Part shown: in pieces, positions 18,001 through 24,000 of the stretch
How positions within the stretch are numbered: position 1 is the stretch's first letter
How the letters are laid out: each line of letters opens with the position of its first letter
Source: Leucoraja ocellata
Lineage: Eukaryota
Assembly: GCA_036785375.1 (NCBI GenBank)
Contig: JAWMAR010000079.1
Span: 5,022,001-5,086,000, forward strand
DNA: 64,000 bases
Direction of reading: 5' to 3'
Position numbers: made by a program

Positions 18001-21000
18001 AAATAACAAAAAAGACAGACAGACACGTGTTTAAATTATCTTTTCTTTTCAAAAAATGGACTTTGACGTCCAGGACAAAAGGAAAAGCAAATTGCTAACT
18101 TGTCTACTTCTGATCTTTGTCCATGGATAATAATATAAGAACAGGTAGGCCAATCAGTGCCTGCTTTACCATTCACTAAAGTCTTGGCCTCAGTGAAAGT
18201 GCTGCTGAGTGATAAAATGATGACAGCATAGATGTTTACTGGACCAAAGATAACTCCAACTCATCTTGTATGTGCTAGTACTTTGGAGTTAACAGAATCT
18301 CACTCCATTGCCCCGTTTTCCTTATGGTGCAGTATGGAAACAGGCCCTTTGGCCCACCGAGTCCATGCCGACAAATCGATCACCTGTTCACACTACTCTG
18401 TTATCCCACTGGCATCCACTCCCAACACGCTAAGTACAATTTTACAGAGACCAATTGACATACAAATCCACACATCTTTGGCATTGAGGAGGAAACCGAA
18501 GCTCCAGGAGGAAATGCGGTCATGGGGAGAACGTACAAGCACCGGGCAAACAGCACCCAAGATTAGGAGTGAACTGGATTTCTGAGCAGCTCTAGCAGCT
18601 GTGCTCTGTGTCATTATCTCTATACCTTCCTCATGTATTTATACACTGTTGCCTTAAACATACTTTGCATAATGCAGTGTCTCTTCCCATCCACTGATAA
18701 TTACTCGCCACCCAACTAGAGGAACAAGTTTTTCCGTTCAATTCAATTCAATTCAATTCAATTCAACTTTAATGTCAAAGCACAAATACAAGTATGAGTA
18801 CAACGAAATGCAGTTTTGCGTCAGTCCGTAGTAGTTGTGCATAAAGAAATTTAAAAAAAAAATAGAAAAAGAGAAGATACAGAATAATCAAAAAATACAG
18901 AATAATTAAACAAAGGGGACGGAGGGACCGGAGAAATCTATCAGCGGGACTCCGAGTTCAGCAATGTGATTGTATTATTGTAGAAGCTGTTCCTCATCCT
19001 ACTAGTACGTGACCTGAGGCTCCTGTACCGCCTCCCTGATGGGAGCAAAAAGCCCTATACAAAGACAAAGATTTATGCTTATTCTCACCTTGGTTACGAC
19101 TGTAATGGGAACAGTCCAGGATGTTGGATCTACTTTCATGACATTTTACTTTACCATCCATGACATCAACTTAATGCACTCACACGATGGACAATCTTTC
19201 TGTATTATGTCAAGATTTAAGAAAGATGCCATTTATGACACACAACTTTTAGTTTAGTTTCTTATTGTCACGTGCACTGAGGTATAGTACAGTTGTAGGT
19301 AAGTAGCAGACAGTGAATAAAAGTTTCAGGAGACATCCTGGATTTGGCCATGATATTTTCTGTTGGCAAAAATGAAAAGGAAGTTGATGATTATTTGTTC
19401 AAAGAATGTAAGAATTAATTTTCCGCCAGGTATTTATTAATCTTTCCTGAGCACTTTGCTTGAGTATTTCAGGAAGCAGGTAAGAGTAAAACACACTTTG
19501 ATTCATCTTTCCTTGGAGGATGTTCATACATTCGATTTTTTGTTTTGGCCAGCTTCATTTTTTAAAATTTGATGCTAATTTTTAATTTAAGATTTTTTTG
19601 TTTAATTACTTGAATTTAAATTCCCTACTTGCCACGCTAGACTTTTAATCAGATCAATTCCGATCAATTTATCAGGTTGTTGCAAACTCAAACTCAACTA
19701 TAGTAGCATAAAGGTCATCAGGTTTCTAAATTATTCAGCTGCTAGAGAATAGTGTGCAGCTGCACAATTCATGTTGTTAATAACTTTGGATGACACGCAG
19801 CACAGTGGTTAATACTGCTGCTTCAAAGCTTTAGAGATATAGGTTTGGTCTTGCCAACTATGTGGAGTTTCGCTGAAAATTTGCCTCGGTCTGCCAAGAC
19901 CGAGTGGATCTCTCAGTTGCTGACCATTTTAACTCCTCTTCCCACTCCCACACTGATCTTTCTGCCCTGGGTCGCCTCCATTGTCTGAGTGAGGCTACAT
20001 GAAAACTGGAGGAACTGCACCTTACGTTGTTGTGAGCTGAAGGTCTCGACCTGAAACATCACCCATTCCTTCTCTCCAGAGATGCTGCCTGTCCTGCTGA
20101 GTTACTCAAGCTTTTTTTGTCTATTGTCTTTATATAATCAATTTCAATGTCTCTGTCACAAAAAAAAACATAGCAGACAATTAAATTCTCAGGTAAACAC
20201 ACTCTTGTGTTAAAGTTAGTGCATCCTCTAGTTGGATGATTATTCTGTATCCAGTAACCCACTGAATAATAACCATAGAAAGTTCCTATAAAACTGCTAG
20301 CACCCTCTTAATTCTGTGGCATACCTGGAGAGGAGGCAAGAAAATGTCAAGGGGTTAAAAAGTAACTGCTGTTTGGAGAAATTGATATATCACGTTTGCT
20401 TAAAAAATTGATTTCATGGATACATAGATAGTAGGTGCAGGAGAAGGCCATTCGGCCCTTCGAGCCAGCACCGCCATTCAATGTGATCATGGCTGATCAT
20501 CCACAATCAGCACCACATTCCTGCCGTATCCCTTGATTCCGCTAGCCCTAAGAGCTCTATTTAACTCTCTTTTGAATGCATTCAGTGAATTGGCTCCTCT
20601 GCCTTCTGTGACAGAGAATTCCACAAATTCACAACTCTGTTATTTCCTTTTGCAGTGCCAGGTGTTTAAATGTAAAGAAAAATAATTCCAGTAACTTGAA
20701 CGAACATATAATTTAATAATATATATTAATATATAATATAATTTATGTATCAACATGTCAAATACTTAGGTTTAATTATATAATTCACAAGTTATATGTT
20801 AATTTGCTCATTTTTAAAGTGGTAAAAATGGTTGTTTATGTAACAAAGTTCTTGTGAGTATTTATGGTAATGCAACATTAAATAAACACGGGGTCCTAGT
20901 CAAAATAAGCATTGCACTTGAAATGAAACCATCCCCCCCTCCCTCCTCCCCTAAACCCGTGAAGGGGCATGGCTTCTGTATGAGAGAGGCTCTGCAGTAT

Positions 21001-24000
21001 TTTTCCACTGGGTTGTCGACGTGGCAAGGCTTGCTGAGAGCGGGGATGATGGGAATGGTTCAGGAAGACATTAGCGGCTGCAGCCTTTGCGTTGAAACCA
21101 AATGTAGGGAGACTTGTAACCATTGAACGATTTTTTTTTGATAATTAAGAGCAGTAACTGCGATTTTAATTTTCAAATCTAAATAAAAATGCGCCCTGTG
21201 CAAATTTCTGCGCGGCATAAGTAAAATCTGCAGTGTGGAAAGGCGTGAAACGTCCTTGCTTAGGAAGGAGGGCACATTTAGTGGCTATTATCTGCAATGC
21301 ACGTCATTTGTGAAGCCGTGGGGATTTGGTAGGTAGGAATTGGTTCGGGCAGGAAGCGTAGAGGGCGGGGTAGCTCACTGCAGCAGATGTTTTTGTGGTC
21401 GCTGAGAACTCTTCAGTTTCAGCCGGCAGCCAGCTTTGCTTTTTGTTGCTTGTTCCACTGAAACCCCACACTGCAAGCTCATTGCAATTACAAATACTCT
21501 GCAAAAAGCACACACGCCATACCACCTCTAAGTACCATTTTTGTGTGTGTGTGGCTGCGCACAAGTTTGGTAATTTTTAGTTTTAAATCCTATTTTGACA
21601 ATTCCTGCCCCTCTCTGTGTGTTTGGAAATGTTTGTTTTTAAAATCCTATTTTGATCATTTCTCCCCCTCTATGTGTGTGTGTGTGTGTGTGTATGAGAG
21701 AGTGTGCACAATATTGGGTTTTTTTAATTGTTTTTGTTCCTATGTTTCACCATTCCTTCCCCTCGCGCGCTCTCTCTCTCTCTCTCTGTCTGTGCACAAG
21801 ATTGGCATTTTAATCATGTTTAAATCTTGATATTTTGAAACAGGGTCTACGTTGAGTGCTGTGCGGGTGATCTGCAAGTGTTGGGGAAGAGTGCGAGTCC
21901 AGAGAGAGCAAGCCCAACGCCGCCAGCCGCTACTGGAGTGAATGCCCGAACCTGCAGCTGCAATGGTGCATGCAAAAACCATGAGGTCAATAGCATCACA
22001 TCCAATCAGCACCAGCACGGCCCTTCCCTTCCCAAAATGCCTCTGCTGGAGGAAGTTGTGCTGCAAGAAGGCCATGTTGGTGAAAGTAGAAGAACTGTCT
22101 GTTCACACCCATTATGGAGCGGCAGAGCAGCGGCGGCGTCCCCGAGCGTGAAGGAGCAGCAGCGAGGAGCAGCGACTTGCACTGTCCACCCGGCAGCATG
22201 CAAAGGCAAGAGGAAACACAAACGCCGCAGTGTAGGCTGCGTTACACAGTTAATGGTAGTAACTCACAAAGATGCCTTGATGCTCAGGAACTGTCAATAT
22301 GGCAGAAGCGAAGGCTCTGAGCATACTAATGGTTCTGTCGAAGCACTCGGCAAGAGGACTAAGGCAGGGCTGGGGCTTTCTTTCCACGTTACTGCATTTA
22401 CCCTAGAAAGCCCCAGACGCTGGAAAGATGAAGGAAGCATCGAGGGATTGCTGGAACTGGAAACAGACCCCACTCTTTGTTCCGAATACAACAACCGTAC
22501 ACAAGTAAGTGTTATTTTAATTGAACTTTGTCCTTGGAAAAACTAGTGCTGTGATGCAGCACAATTGGAGCTACTTAATTATAGCAGCCATGCCTGTTAC
22601 TGCACTGCTCTAATCTCTGAAATGAAAGTAAATTTGACACAAACTTCTTTTGGTAGATTTGAAAACCTTATTTGGATAAATCTAAACTAAAAGCAAACGA
22701 CCGCATTAACCCTTTAGGTATTTTTTCCCCTTAACACCTTAATACAGCTTGTATGTTTTTTTGCTGTTGCAGAACGACACAGAGGTCAAGCCTTCAACCA
22801 CCGATGGTCTTATTCAAGCGATTAATATGTTGCACAAGGTTAATAATAGAAGAATACTTGTTACTGTTGACCTTCAGTGTGCTAGTTTGCAAGGTTATGG
22901 TCGTGAACAAGTATTGCCTAGGTTGTGATCGATTAACTTGTTTACTGAATACAACTAAAACTGAACTGATGATCCATGAGTTATCAAAAGATTTCTTTGT
23001 TTGGGTGTTGGCTTTGTTAACTCTTTGTGCTGAGGGTTTCATGATTTAATCAACCCCTTTCATGTATTTTGTAATTTTGTATTATGCTTGCTTCTTTGAG
23101 CCTTCGGTGGAGGGAGGTGGTAATTTTTAATCAGCCATCTTAACTATTCTGTATAATTTCAAGTGGGTTTTGTAATAGTAAGTCTCTGCTTCCTTAATTT
23201 TAAATTTTTCATCTTTGCCTTGTAGAACTGAAGCTGCTAATCTGTGGTATAAAAAGATCTTTAAAAAATATCTTTGGCTAACAAACTGCCCTGAGAAGTT
23301 ATACATTTTCATCTGCATTGAATACTGTCATGGTACAAATGCCTCTTTATGCCTGCATACAGTTTAACTCTTGAGAAATTGGTGAACAATTAAGTTTGGT
23401 GGACATAAACAAAAGTTGTGACAATAAAGTGATTGATTGCTAATAACAGTTCAATAGAAGTGTGGTCTCCATGTCTGAACTCTGTGGGTTGTCAGAAAGA
23501 ACACACATACAACTAACTGTTCACCAAGCATTTATTGATTTTTTCAAGAATTCACTTCATGCTCTCTTTAAAGGGTTTAAGATATACCAAATCAAATGTA
23601 TACTAAGCTGTACATAAACCTTCCTCTAACCTTGTTTAAAATAGTTTTACAGGTTAATTCTATTGTGTTCATCATTTTCTGTTTACAGGATAAACACTCA
23701 TTTGGCTTGGTATGGTGGCCTGTTTTCTGAGTGCAAATGTTCTTCTCTGTGTGAAGTTATAGTCATCTGGAAAGAATGGATAATATGAAACATCAAAATT
23801 GTTAATTGGCATCAGTAAAGATGCAATATTTTTTGTTTATACATGGCATTTAAAAAATTTTAGTGATACAATTCATCAAGTTCACGAAGAATATTTTGTA
23901 AATTTGTGCAAAATAATTCAGCCGTCAAAACCAATCCATTTGCAATATTTCCTGAAGGACCAAATGTAAAGCCCCTGTGTGTTTTTATTGGTGAATTAAA

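What the first reader, a model, noticed from the sequence alone, without database searches (positions are those of the whole stretch)
20900..22500. Hidden CpG-island promoter inside CTC1: an interleaved lncRNA gene or a short CTC1 isoform
Seen: ordered CRE half-site (21301), CCAAT (21339), ETS (21350), GC box (21363), Inr-like TCAGTTT (21413) and a donor at 21569/21570. Unlike the other CTC1 exons, the adjoining exon is CpG-rich, which suggests germline hypomethylation. Inference A: the CTC1-CHD2 gap is much shorter than the multi-exon mammalian CHASERR locus, so CHASERR may start here and thread through CTC1 introns on the same strand, an interleaved CTC1/lncRNA/CHD2 unit I do not know to be described. 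Inference B: splicing 21569 to 21844 and initiating at the in-frame ATG at 22037 would give a roughly 605-aa C-terminal CTC1 keeping only the distal OB folds.
Basis: partly seen in the sequence, partly recalled or inferred. Interest (0 to 1): 0.78.

Follow-up and report, generated by a model that had tools for sequence, protein, structure and literature searches.

The report
Small promoter-like CpG island in skate CTC1
A short CpG-rich patch carrying a tight cluster of promoter-type motifs really does sit in an intron of the skate telomere gene CTC1, but nothing found here shows that it launches the CHASERR RNA or a shortened CTC1 protein.

Summary
The window is skate DNA, not human. Its CHD2 leader is 100% identical to Leucoraja erinacea CHD2, and the CTC1 exon is 98% identical to Amblyraja radiata CTC1.

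They lie in a roughly 450-bp island, 21000-21450, with CpG o/e 0.84 against 0.38 in CTC1 introns. It ranks third in the window, after the CHD2 promoter and a stronger island at 17.4-17.9 kb. The four-motif cluster occurs once in 64 kb, against 0.007 expected; this test is post hoc.

It is not a 1.6-kb island. A CpG-poor, repeat-filled 390 bp separates it from the exon, and the exon's enrichment is modest (o/e 0.59, P=0.02).

- **Short CTC1 isoform:** disfavoured. Four out-of-frame upstream ATGs precede ATG 22037, and three open an ORF that overlaps it. The donor is weak and lies in a tandem repeat. No isoform of about 600 aa was found.
- **CHASERR start:** no positive evidence. A CHASERR-like AUGG-rich stretch lies at 59.56-59.91 kb, and the CTC1-CHD2 gap holds no CpG island.

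Best reading: an orphan, promoter-like intragenic island of unknown output. Ordinary until transcript data exist.

The parts
21000..21450 (.). CpG-retaining island (orphan, intronic)
   Evidence: 19 CpG, o/e 0.84, GC 0.47, against intron o/e 0.38 (Poisson P=0.0017). Third-ranking locus in the window. TpG o/e 1.05 against 1.24 and 1.75 in the flanks. No other copy in the window.
21302..21369 (+). Promoter-type motif cluster: CGTCA 21302, ATTGG (inverted CCAAT) 21339, CAGGAAG 21350, GGGCGGG 21363
   Evidence: The only site in 64 kb with all four (or even three) within 100 bp; 0.007 expected. The test is post hoc.
21413..21419 (+). Inr-like TCAGTTT (fits YYANWYY); no TATA box upstream
   Evidence: no TATAWA between 20800 and 22600. 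A 7-mer this degenerate is expected about every 128 nt (inference).
21415..21569 (+).
   Evidence: No ATG inside it. Donor matches 6/9; 15% of all plus-strand GT sites do as well or better. Eight CTC1 donors placed exactly score 6-8. RNA fold z = -0.74. No transcript evidence available.
21565..21791 (.). 57-bp tandem repeat (2 copies, 21565-21679), (TG)10.5 at 21673-21693, (CT)11 at 21770-21791; CpG-poor spacer
   Evidence: CpG o/e 0.33 for 21570-21843.
21844..22504 (+). Largest CTC1 coding exon in the window; encodes a linker absent from human CTC1
   Evidence: 98% identical to A. radiata CTC1; 16 of 16 hits are chondrichthyan CTC1. tblastn block P0001 554-783. Human CTC1 aligns only to P0001 15-583 and 773-1215. 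AlphaFold2 mean pLDDT 32.4, all 220 residues below 50.
21983..22117 (+). 45-aa block (P0001 601-645) conserved across cartilaginous fishes; contains the Met at 22037
   Evidence: Second most conserved 45-aa window of the whole protein (0.914; top is 0.918). 27 of 55 columns are invariant in 596-650, against 5 of 42 just upstream. No Pfam match for the exon. The exhaustive search found only CTC1 proteins.
21942..22151 (+). Out-of-frame ORF (69 codons, further ATGs at 21963 and 21981) overlapping ATG 22037
   Evidence: No Pfam family.
17384..17940 (+). Stronger CpG island in the same intron, followed by the consensus donor ATG|GTAAGT at 17785
   Evidence: 37 CpG, o/e 0.89, GC 0.55; the peak 300-bp window has 30 CpG, GC 0.62, o/e 1.04. 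Donor 8/9. No Pfam family in 7 ORFs. No other copy in the window.
55627..55770 (+). Last CTC1 coding exon and stop codon; first AATAAA at 56068
59515..59940 (+). AUGG-rich stretch, a candidate CHASERR-type last exon (acceptor-like site at 59514|59515, ATTAAA at 59904)
   Evidence: 9 ATGG, 8 AATGG and 4 RRATGG in 350 nt from 59561. P for a fixed 2-kb zone upstream of CHD2: 0.005, 0 of 200 simulations, and 0.02. Acceptor and poly(A) signal. Against: no AAGATG inside it, and no AATAAA.
60954..61461 (+). CHD2 5' end: ATG GAA CAG then donor at 60963 (exon 1), exon 2 at 61191-61461
   Evidence: 100% identity over 99% of the 90-aa ORF to L. erinacea CHD2 isoforms X4 and X5, which begin MEQSLSECDNG. 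CpG island at 60.6-61.5 kb, o/e 0.89.

Best explanation
A roughly 450-bp orphan intragenic CpG island lies in the 5.4-kb CTC1 intron of a skate (Leucoraja erinacea or a very close relative), about 430 bp upstream of the largest CTC1 exon.

It has kept its CpGs about as well as the CHD2 promoter in the same window. That is what a stretch protected from germline methylation looks like (inferred). It carries a canonical TATA-less core arrangement, CRE half-site, CCAAT, ETS, GC box, then Inr over 115 bp, with the CCAAT box about 75 bp before the Inr-like A.

My committed reading is a weak, unannotated plus-strand start site, or a promoter-like regulatory element. Its product would be a minor non-coding or alternative-5' CTC1 transcript. 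I do not think it is the CHASERR promoter, or the source of an efficiently translated 608-aa CTC1.

Shown: the island, the motif cluster, and their rarity in the window. Inferred: hypomethylation, transcription, strand and product.
For: - CpG o/e 0.84 against an intron background of 0.38 (P=0.0017). TpG is not in excess (1.05). The CHD2 promoter island has o/e 0.89.
- It is the third-ranking CpG locus among 1271 windows of 451 bp.
- The four-motif cluster is unique in the window; 0.007 expected.
- It is single-copy in the window.
- No RNA family, tRNA or protein domain explains the stretch.
- The putative 155-nt first exon contains no ATG.
Against: - No transcript, CAGE, chromatin or methylation data could be consulted.
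- No DNA from another cartilaginous fish was reachable, so conservation of the island is unknown.
- The island is short with GC only 0.47, and it meets classical CpG-island limits only marginally.
- The motif test is post hoc.
- There is no plus-strand donor of 7/9 or better between 20900 and 21843.
- The proposed donor lies at the first bases of a 57-bp tandem repeat.
- A young, not yet decayed insertion would give the same CpG picture. No repeat library was available to exclude this.
Confidence: 0.4

Rival explanations
1. No function. The stretch is a neutral or transposon-derived CpG-rich fragment (a young insertion or solo LTR-like piece), and its promoter-like motifs are chance or a relic of the element.
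For: - The intron is full of repeats: SINE-like copies at 16722-16986, 18325-18574, 20039-20125 and 20409-20632, and tandem repeats directly downstream.
- A second CpG-rich block of unknown nature sits at 17.4-17.9 kb.
- The motif test is post hoc.
- The island is short and only marginally meets CpG-island limits.
Against: - No second copy in 64 kb.
- All four motifs lie within 68 bp in canonical order and spacing relative to an Inr. There is no other site in the window with even three of them.
- TpG is not elevated.
Confidence: 0.3
2. A regulatory element but not a start site: an unmethylated intronic enhancer or insulator acting on CTC1 or CHD2.
For: The same CpG retention and factor-motif density. 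There is no good donor downstream.
Against: The motif set and order (CCAAT, GC box, Inr) are typical of a core promoter. This rests on general knowledge, not on a test run here.
Confidence: 0.15
3. Reader's inference B. A transcript starts near 21415 and splices 21569 to 21844. Translation starts at ATG 22037 and gives a 608-aa CTC1 with the linker and the three distal OB folds.
For: - ATG 22037 is in frame, with A at -3.
- The Met is invariant in 16 of 16 chondrichthyan CTC1 proteins.
- The part downstream of the Met aligns to human CTC1 795-1211 and to the solved central OB domain 5W2L.
- The putative first exon has no ATG.
Against: - Four out-of-frame ATGs lie in the exon ahead of 22037. 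21963 has G at -3 and G at +4, and 21981 has A at -3.
- Three of them open an ORF ending at 22151, past the proposed start. That blocks both scanning and re-initiation (mechanism from general knowledge).
- The donor is 6/9 and lies in a tandem repeat.
- The search for proteins of 673 aa or fewer, using P0001 residues 619-1226, gave 2 hits (241 and 72 aa) and none near 600 aa.
- The Met lies in a 45-aa block that is conserved as a whole. It is Leu in the only non-chondrichthyan CTC1 that aligns, P0019.
Confidence: 0.07
4. Reader's inference A. The skate CHASERR orthologue starts at this island, threads through CTC1 introns on the same strand, and ends just upstream of CHD2.
For: - The CTC1 3' end (AATAAA at 56068) lies only about 4.3-4.8 kb from CHD2 exon 1.
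- That gap has no CpG island; every 300-bp window from 55.95 to 60.3 kb has o/e 0.51 or less.
- An AUGG-rich stretch like the published CHASERR last-exon motif region lies at 59.56-59.91 kb.
Against: - Nothing links 21.4 kb to 59.5 kb.
- The transcript would have to skip 11 CTC1 exon blocks over 38 kb.
- The island has GC 0.47, against the 'extremely G/C-rich' CHASERR promoter and first exon.
- The 17.4-17.9 kb island is richer and has a consensus donor.
- CHASERR transcripts are only 579-1313 nt in five exons, so they could fit in 4 kb with a non-island promoter.
- The candidate last exon lacks AAGAUG and AAUAAA, both reported as conserved in all 16 curated CHASERR sequences.
Confidence: 0.04

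Closest known systems
Orphan (intragenic) CpG islands and alternative promoters of vertebrate genes
   Same: A short CpG-retaining patch inside a gene body, away from the annotated 5' end, with CCAAT, GC-box and ETS motifs and no TATA box.
   Different: Activity and methylation state are unknown here. It is smaller and less GC-rich (0.47) than mammalian islands. The class description is recalled general knowledge and comes from no call.
CHASERR (LINC01578 / 1810026B05Rik), the lncRNA upstream of CHD2
   Same: The same strand as CHD2 and upstream of it. The window has an AUGG/RRAUGG-rich stretch within 1 kb of the CHD2 island, as in the published last-exon motif region (passages of PMC7798263, of PMC6841665, and of bioRxiv 10.1101/2025.05.28.656657).
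   Different: - Published CHASERR genes lie wholly between the upstream gene and CHD2.
- They have a very G/C-rich promoter and five exons, and carry AAGAUG and AAUAAA in the last exon. The 21.4-kb island meets none of these.
- None of the 16 curated species is a cartilaginous fish (Table S1).
CTC1 (Pfam PF15489), large subunit of the CST complex
   Same: The exon at 21844-22504 is a CTC1 exon. P0001 scores 797.8 bits on PF15489.
   Different: The exon encodes a linker about 190 aa long that does not align to human CTC1. It contains a 45-aa block seen at this strength only in cartilaginous fishes.

Membership tests
CpG-island promoter | CpG o/e >= 0.6 and GC >= 0.5 over >= 200 bp (Gardiner-Garden type limits, recalled) | tested here: inconclusive
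   200-bp windows spanning 21182-21455 pass only at the margin (GC 0.49-0.51, o/e 0.59-0.87). The whole 451 bp has o/e 0.84 but GC 0.47. The stricter limits of 500 bp with GC 0.55 are not met.
CpG-island promoter | Unmethylated in germline and early embryo | not testable with these tools
   Only indirect evidence: CpG is retained and TpG is not in excess.
CpG-island promoter | Capped transcript 5' ends or H3K4me3 at the site | not testable with these tools
   No expression or chromatin data are reachable.
CpG-island promoter | Cluster of ubiquitous factor motifs (Sp1, NF-Y, ETS, CREB) near an Inr | tested here: met
   Unique four-motif cluster at 21302-21369, with an Inr-like site at 21413. 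The test is post hoc.
CHASERR lncRNA | [quoted passage not shown] | tested here: not met
   The island has GC 0.47. The putative exon lies in 21450-21843, where GC is 0.39.
CHASERR lncRNA | Same strand as CHD2, with its 3' end within about 2 kb of the CHD2 start | tested here: inconclusive
   A candidate last exon at 59515-59940 fits by position. Nothing connects it to 21.4 kb.
CHASERR lncRNA | Clustered RRAUGG/AUGG motifs at the start of the last exon | tested here: inconclusive
   4 RRATGG and 9 ATGG in 350 nt from 59561. P for a fixed 2-kb zone is 0.02 and 0.005, but anywhere in the window it is 0.12 and 0.09. The AARATGR and ARATGR clusters are not above simulation.
CHASERR lncRNA | AAGAUG in the last exon and AAUAAA at the 3' end, in all 16 curated sequences | tested here: not met
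   No AAGATG in 59515-59940; the nearest is at 59308. Only ATTAAA is present, at 59904.
CHASERR lncRNA | Five-exon spliced, polyadenylated transcript independent of neighbouring genes | not testable with these tools
   Needs RNA data.
CTC1 (PF15489) | The exon belongs to a protein matching PF15489 along its length | tested here: met
   19 tblastn blocks of P0001 across 493-55767. P0001 scores 797.8 bits on PF15489. The exon alone has no Pfam match.
N-terminally truncated CTC1 isoform | The proposed start is the first AUG of its transcript | tested here: not met
   Four upstream out-of-frame ATGs in the same exon.
N-terminally truncated CTC1 isoform | A matching protein model exists in databases | tested here: not met
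   2 short hits (241 and 72 aa), none near 600 aa. The members of the 20-sequence P0001 cluster could not be listed, so this is weak evidence.

The most novel reading that the evidence does not exclude
Skates have no stand-alone CpG-island promoter for CHASERR in the 4.4-kb CTC1-CHD2 gap. Instead, the AUGG-rich terminal exon at 59.5-59.9 kb would be fed by transcription that begins inside CTC1 (the 21.4-kb or the stronger 17.6-kb island), or by CTC1 transcripts themselves. A telomere-maintenance gene and the CHD2 dosage sensor would then form one coupled, same-strand transcription unit.
Probability: 0.05. Interest if true: 0.75.

Novelty: new member of a known kind. Interest (0 to 1): 0.3.

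Why it matters
If the island is active, it adds an internal start site to CTC1 in a lineage where CTC1 lies directly upstream of CHD2. CHD2 dosage is known to be tuned by upstream same-strand transcription (CHASERR).

The broader question is the more useful one: where is CHASERR in cartilaginous fishes, and does CTC1 transcription take part in controlling CHD2? That can be tested with existing skate RNA-seq and ATAC data.

As it stands, the finding is one ordinary orphan island with unproven activity.

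Tried and rejected
- **RNA genes:** Rfam gave 0 matches at gathering score over the whole window. Permissive mode on 20400-22700 gave only two chance-level hits, E 0.19 and 0.48. tRNA scan: 0.
- **Protein domains:** none of the 13 ORFs tested in and around the 21-kb and 17.5-kb islands (12, plus 20818-21126) reached significance. 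The only matches were two chance-level ones (E 0.18 and 0.082) in two 17.5-kb-island ORFs.
- **RNA structure:** the conserved exon block has z = -0.48 and the putative first exon z = -0.74. Nothing unusual.
- **Repeats:** self-BLAST of 16400-23000 against the window found no copy of 20633-22999.
- **CHASERR motifs in the last CTC1 exon:** my by-eye count was wrong. AARATGR occurs once there, and ARATGR clusters of 4 in 300 nt are typical of simulations. Idea dropped.
- **Structure of the exon product:** the AlphaFold2 model is low confidence (mean pLDDT 32.4), so no fold search was run.
- **Literature:** 'CTC1 + CHD2 + shark' gave 0 papers. 'Chaserr + elephant shark' gave 1 paper, which used shark only for other genes. 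A search for a truncated or alternative-promoter CTC1 isoform gave 1 irrelevant paper.
- **TGCB microprotein preprint:** I read part 1 of 3. It reports conservation in mammals only and prints no sequence there, so it gave no test for skate.
- **Donor scoring:** 4 of the 12 rows for annotated CTC1 donors were mis-indexed by me (they scored 3/9) and were dropped. The other 8 score 6-8.
- **Spliced model:** Exons were examined one by one, and the hypothetical 608-aa product was probed only through residues 619-1226 of the stored database protein P0001.
- **Mouse Chaserr exon 5:** the sequence printed in a supplement was not aligned to the skate stretch.
- **Not available:** No orthologous DNA could be compared. 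bioRxiv supplements and supplementary file 4 of PMC7798263 were not seen.

Full report
**Origin and gene map**

The window is not human. The 90-aa reading frame at 61192-61461 is 100% identical to CHD2 isoforms X4 and X5 of Leucoraja erinacea, and 98% identical to Amblyraja radiata CHD2. The exon at 21845-22504 is 98% identical to A. radiata CTC1, and all 16 hits are CTC1 of cartilaginous fishes.

tblastn of that protein (P0001) places 19 CTC1 coding blocks on the + strand, from 493 to 55767. Five further ORFs match Pfam CTC1. The exon before the finding ends at 16422. The big exon is 21844-22504. The last coding exon ends with a stop at 55768-55770, and the first AATAAA follows at 56068.

The annotated CHD2 isoforms begin MEQSLSECDNG. 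That fixes CHD2 exon 1 as ending at 60962 (ATG at 60954) and exon 2 as 61191-61461. The gap between the genes is about 4.3-4.8 kb.

**The observation**

| Feature | Coordinates |
|---|---|
| CGTCA (CRE half-site) | 21302 |
| ATTGG (inverted CCAAT) | 21339 |
| CAGGAAG (ETS) | 21350 |
| GGGCGGG (GC box) | 21363 |
| TCAGTTT (Inr-like) | 21413 |
| G\|GT (donor) | 21569\|21570 |
| In-frame ATG | 22037 |

GC boxes are rare here, with 4 in 64 kb on both strands. The site is the only one with all four motifs, or even three, within 100 bp. Simulated windows gave 0.007 such clusters on average, and 0 of 2000 simulations with the local composition gave one. The motif set was chosen after seeing the sequence, so the real significance is lower.

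The interval 21000-21450 holds 19 CpG (o/e 0.84), against an intron background of 0.38 (P=0.0017). Among 1271 windows of 451 bp, only the CHD2 promoter and a block at 17.15-17.6 kb score higher. TpG is not in excess in the island (1.05), unlike the flanks (1.24 and 1.75). The island's CpG o/e is close to that of the CHD2 promoter (0.89).

**Limits of the observation**

- The island is about 450 bp with GC 0.47. It passes classical limits only at the margin.
- It is cut off from the exon by 390 CpG-poor bases (o/e 0.33-0.34), made of a 57-bp tandem repeat and two dinucleotide runs.
- The exon is only modestly CpG-enriched: o/e 0.59 against 0.39 pooled for the other 18 blocks (P=0.02).
- Eight of the exon's 28 CpGs lie in a 56-nt GC-rich run. 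Without that run, o/e is 0.49. The exon's TpG excess (1.53) speaks for ongoing decay rather than protection.
- Two small exons have a higher o/e.

**Inference B, a 608-aa C-terminal CTC1**

I examined each exon separately, and I used residues 619-1226 of the database protein P0001 as a stand-in for the product.

For the idea:
- The ATG is in frame with A at -3, and the putative 155-nt first exon has no ATG.
- The downstream part aligns to human CTC1 795-1211 and to the solved central OB domain. "Distal OB folds only" is therefore a fair description.

Against it:
- The big exon carries four out-of-frame ATGs before 22037, at 21942, 21963, 21970 and 21981. Two are in good context. Three open an ORF that ends at 22151, 114 nt past the proposed start. 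By the standard scanning model, this should strongly depress initiation at 22037.
- The donor matches 6 of 9 consensus positions, as do 15% of all plus-strand GT sites. Eight exactly placed CTC1 donors score 6-8.
- The donor is the first base pair of a tandem repeat.
- A search for proteins of 673 aa or fewer gave two fragments (241 and 72 aa) and nothing near 600 aa. This is weak evidence, because isoforms may be hidden inside the 20-member P0001 cluster, which I could not list.

The Met is invariant in 16 of 16 sequences, and in 14 of 14 in a second alignment. It lies in a 45-aa block that is the second most conserved stretch of the whole protein (0.914 against 0.918 for the top). Its conservation therefore needs no start-codon explanation. 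In the one non-chondrichthyan CTC1 that aligns (P0019; Pfam CTC1 929 bits), the position is Leu.

**Inference A, CHASERR starting here**

From passages of PMC7798263 and PMC6841665, and of the preprint 10.1101/2025.05.28.656657, CHASERR has these features:
- It ends within about 2 kb of the CHD2 start, on the same strand.
- It has five exons and 579-1313 nt.
- Its promoter and first exon are extremely G/C-rich.
- Its last exon carries clustered RRAUGG/AUGG motifs, plus AAGAUG and AAUAAA.

None of the 16 curated species is a cartilaginous fish (supplementary Table S1).

In the window, 59561-59910 on the + strand holds 9 ATGG, 8 AATGG and 4 RRATGG. For a zone fixed at 2 kb upstream of CHD2, simulations reach these counts with P=0.005, in 0 of 200 runs, and with P=0.02. 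Anywhere in the window, the ATGG and RRATGG values are P=0.09 and 0.12. AATGG was my own post hoc choice.

An acceptor-like site (59514|59515) and an ATTAAA (59904) would bound an exon of about 420 nt. Against this reading, there is no AAGATG inside and no AATAAA. Some of these ATGG sites could equally be promoter-distal DNA motifs (inference).

The gap from 56.1 to 60.2 kb has no CpG island.

Nothing ties it to 21.4 kb, however. That island has GC 0.47. The island at 17384-17940 is richer (peak 30 CpG in 300 bp, GC 0.62) and is followed by ATG|GTAAGT. A five-exon RNA of about 1 kb can also fit into 4 kb.

**What it most likely is**

I read it as an orphan intragenic island with a TATA-less core-promoter layout. 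It is probably an unmethylated regulatory patch and possibly a weak plus-strand start site. Its product would be a minor non-coding or alternative-5' CTC1 RNA (confidence 0.4).

The main rival is a neutral or transposon-derived fragment (0.3). I could not test this because no repeat library and no other cartilaginous-fish DNA were reachable. An enhancer-type element (0.15), inference B (0.07) and inference A (0.04) follow.

No RNA family, tRNA, protein domain, unusual RNA fold or second copy in the window explains the stretch.

**Novelty**

A promoter-like orphan island in a gene body is a known kind of feature, and this one is a new, unremarkable member.

I found no paper on CHASERR in cartilaginous fishes, or on CTC1 next to CHD2, in the held library. 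I also found none on a truncated CTC1 isoform from an internal promoter. bioRxiv supplements and one large supplementary file of PMC7798263 could not be seen and might list further species.

The boldest reading still open is that CTC1 transcription, or an internal CTC1 promoter, feeds a CHASERR-type terminal exon in front of CHD2. It deserves a look in existing skate RNA-seq data. I put it at about 5%.

Noticed in passing
window 21983-22117 (P0001 residues 601-645): A 45-aa block inside the otherwise poorly conserved, predicted-disordered CTC1 linker is nearly invariant in 16 cartilaginous-fish CTC1 proteins. It is the second most conserved window of the protein. It has no counterpart in the human CTC1 alignment or in Pfam, and only a faint echo in one other vertebrate CTC1. 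It may be a lineage-specific binding motif or an overlapping nucleic-acid element. An out-of-frame 69-codon ORF (21942-22151) spans it.
   Followed up: partly
window 17384-17940: The strongest CpG island inside CTC1 (peak 30 CpG in 300 bp, GC 0.62, o/e about 1.0), in the same intron and followed by a consensus plus-strand donor ATG|GTAAGT at 17785. It has no protein domain and no other copy in the window, and repeats flank it. It could be an internal first exon or a young repeat.
   Followed up: partly
window 59515-59940: An AUGG/AAUGG-rich stretch on the CHD2 strand, 0.5-0.9 kb upstream of the CHD2 CpG island. It resembles the published motif region of the CHASERR last exon but lacks AAGAUG and AAUAAA. 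CHASERR has not been curated in cartilaginous fishes in the papers I read.
   Followed up: partly
window 60954-61461: The annotated skate and ray CHD2 isoforms start at an ATG in exon 1 (MEQ) and read through what would otherwise be the 5' leader. This adds 72 residues upstream of the MSSQGK start. The extension is 84% identical between skate and Mobula, which is high for a leader.
   Followed up: partly
window 41426-55626: The last CTC1 intron is about 14 kb, by far the longest in the window. It contains a Sleeping-Beauty-type transposase remnant (HTH_SB match at 54329-54544, E 0.0016, below the Pfam cut-off).
   Followed up: no
window 20039-20125 and at least 20 other sites: A short interspersed repeat of about 85 bp occurs on both strands throughout the window at 77-94% identity. 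A second family (16722-16986, 18334-18559, 32240-32520, 11145-11300) is also frequent.
   Followed up: no
P0010 (Rhincodon typus CTC1 isoform X3, 976 aa): This annotated whale-shark isoform ends 23 residues after the big exon. Database models therefore show early termination after this exon, rather than initiation within it.
   Followed up: no
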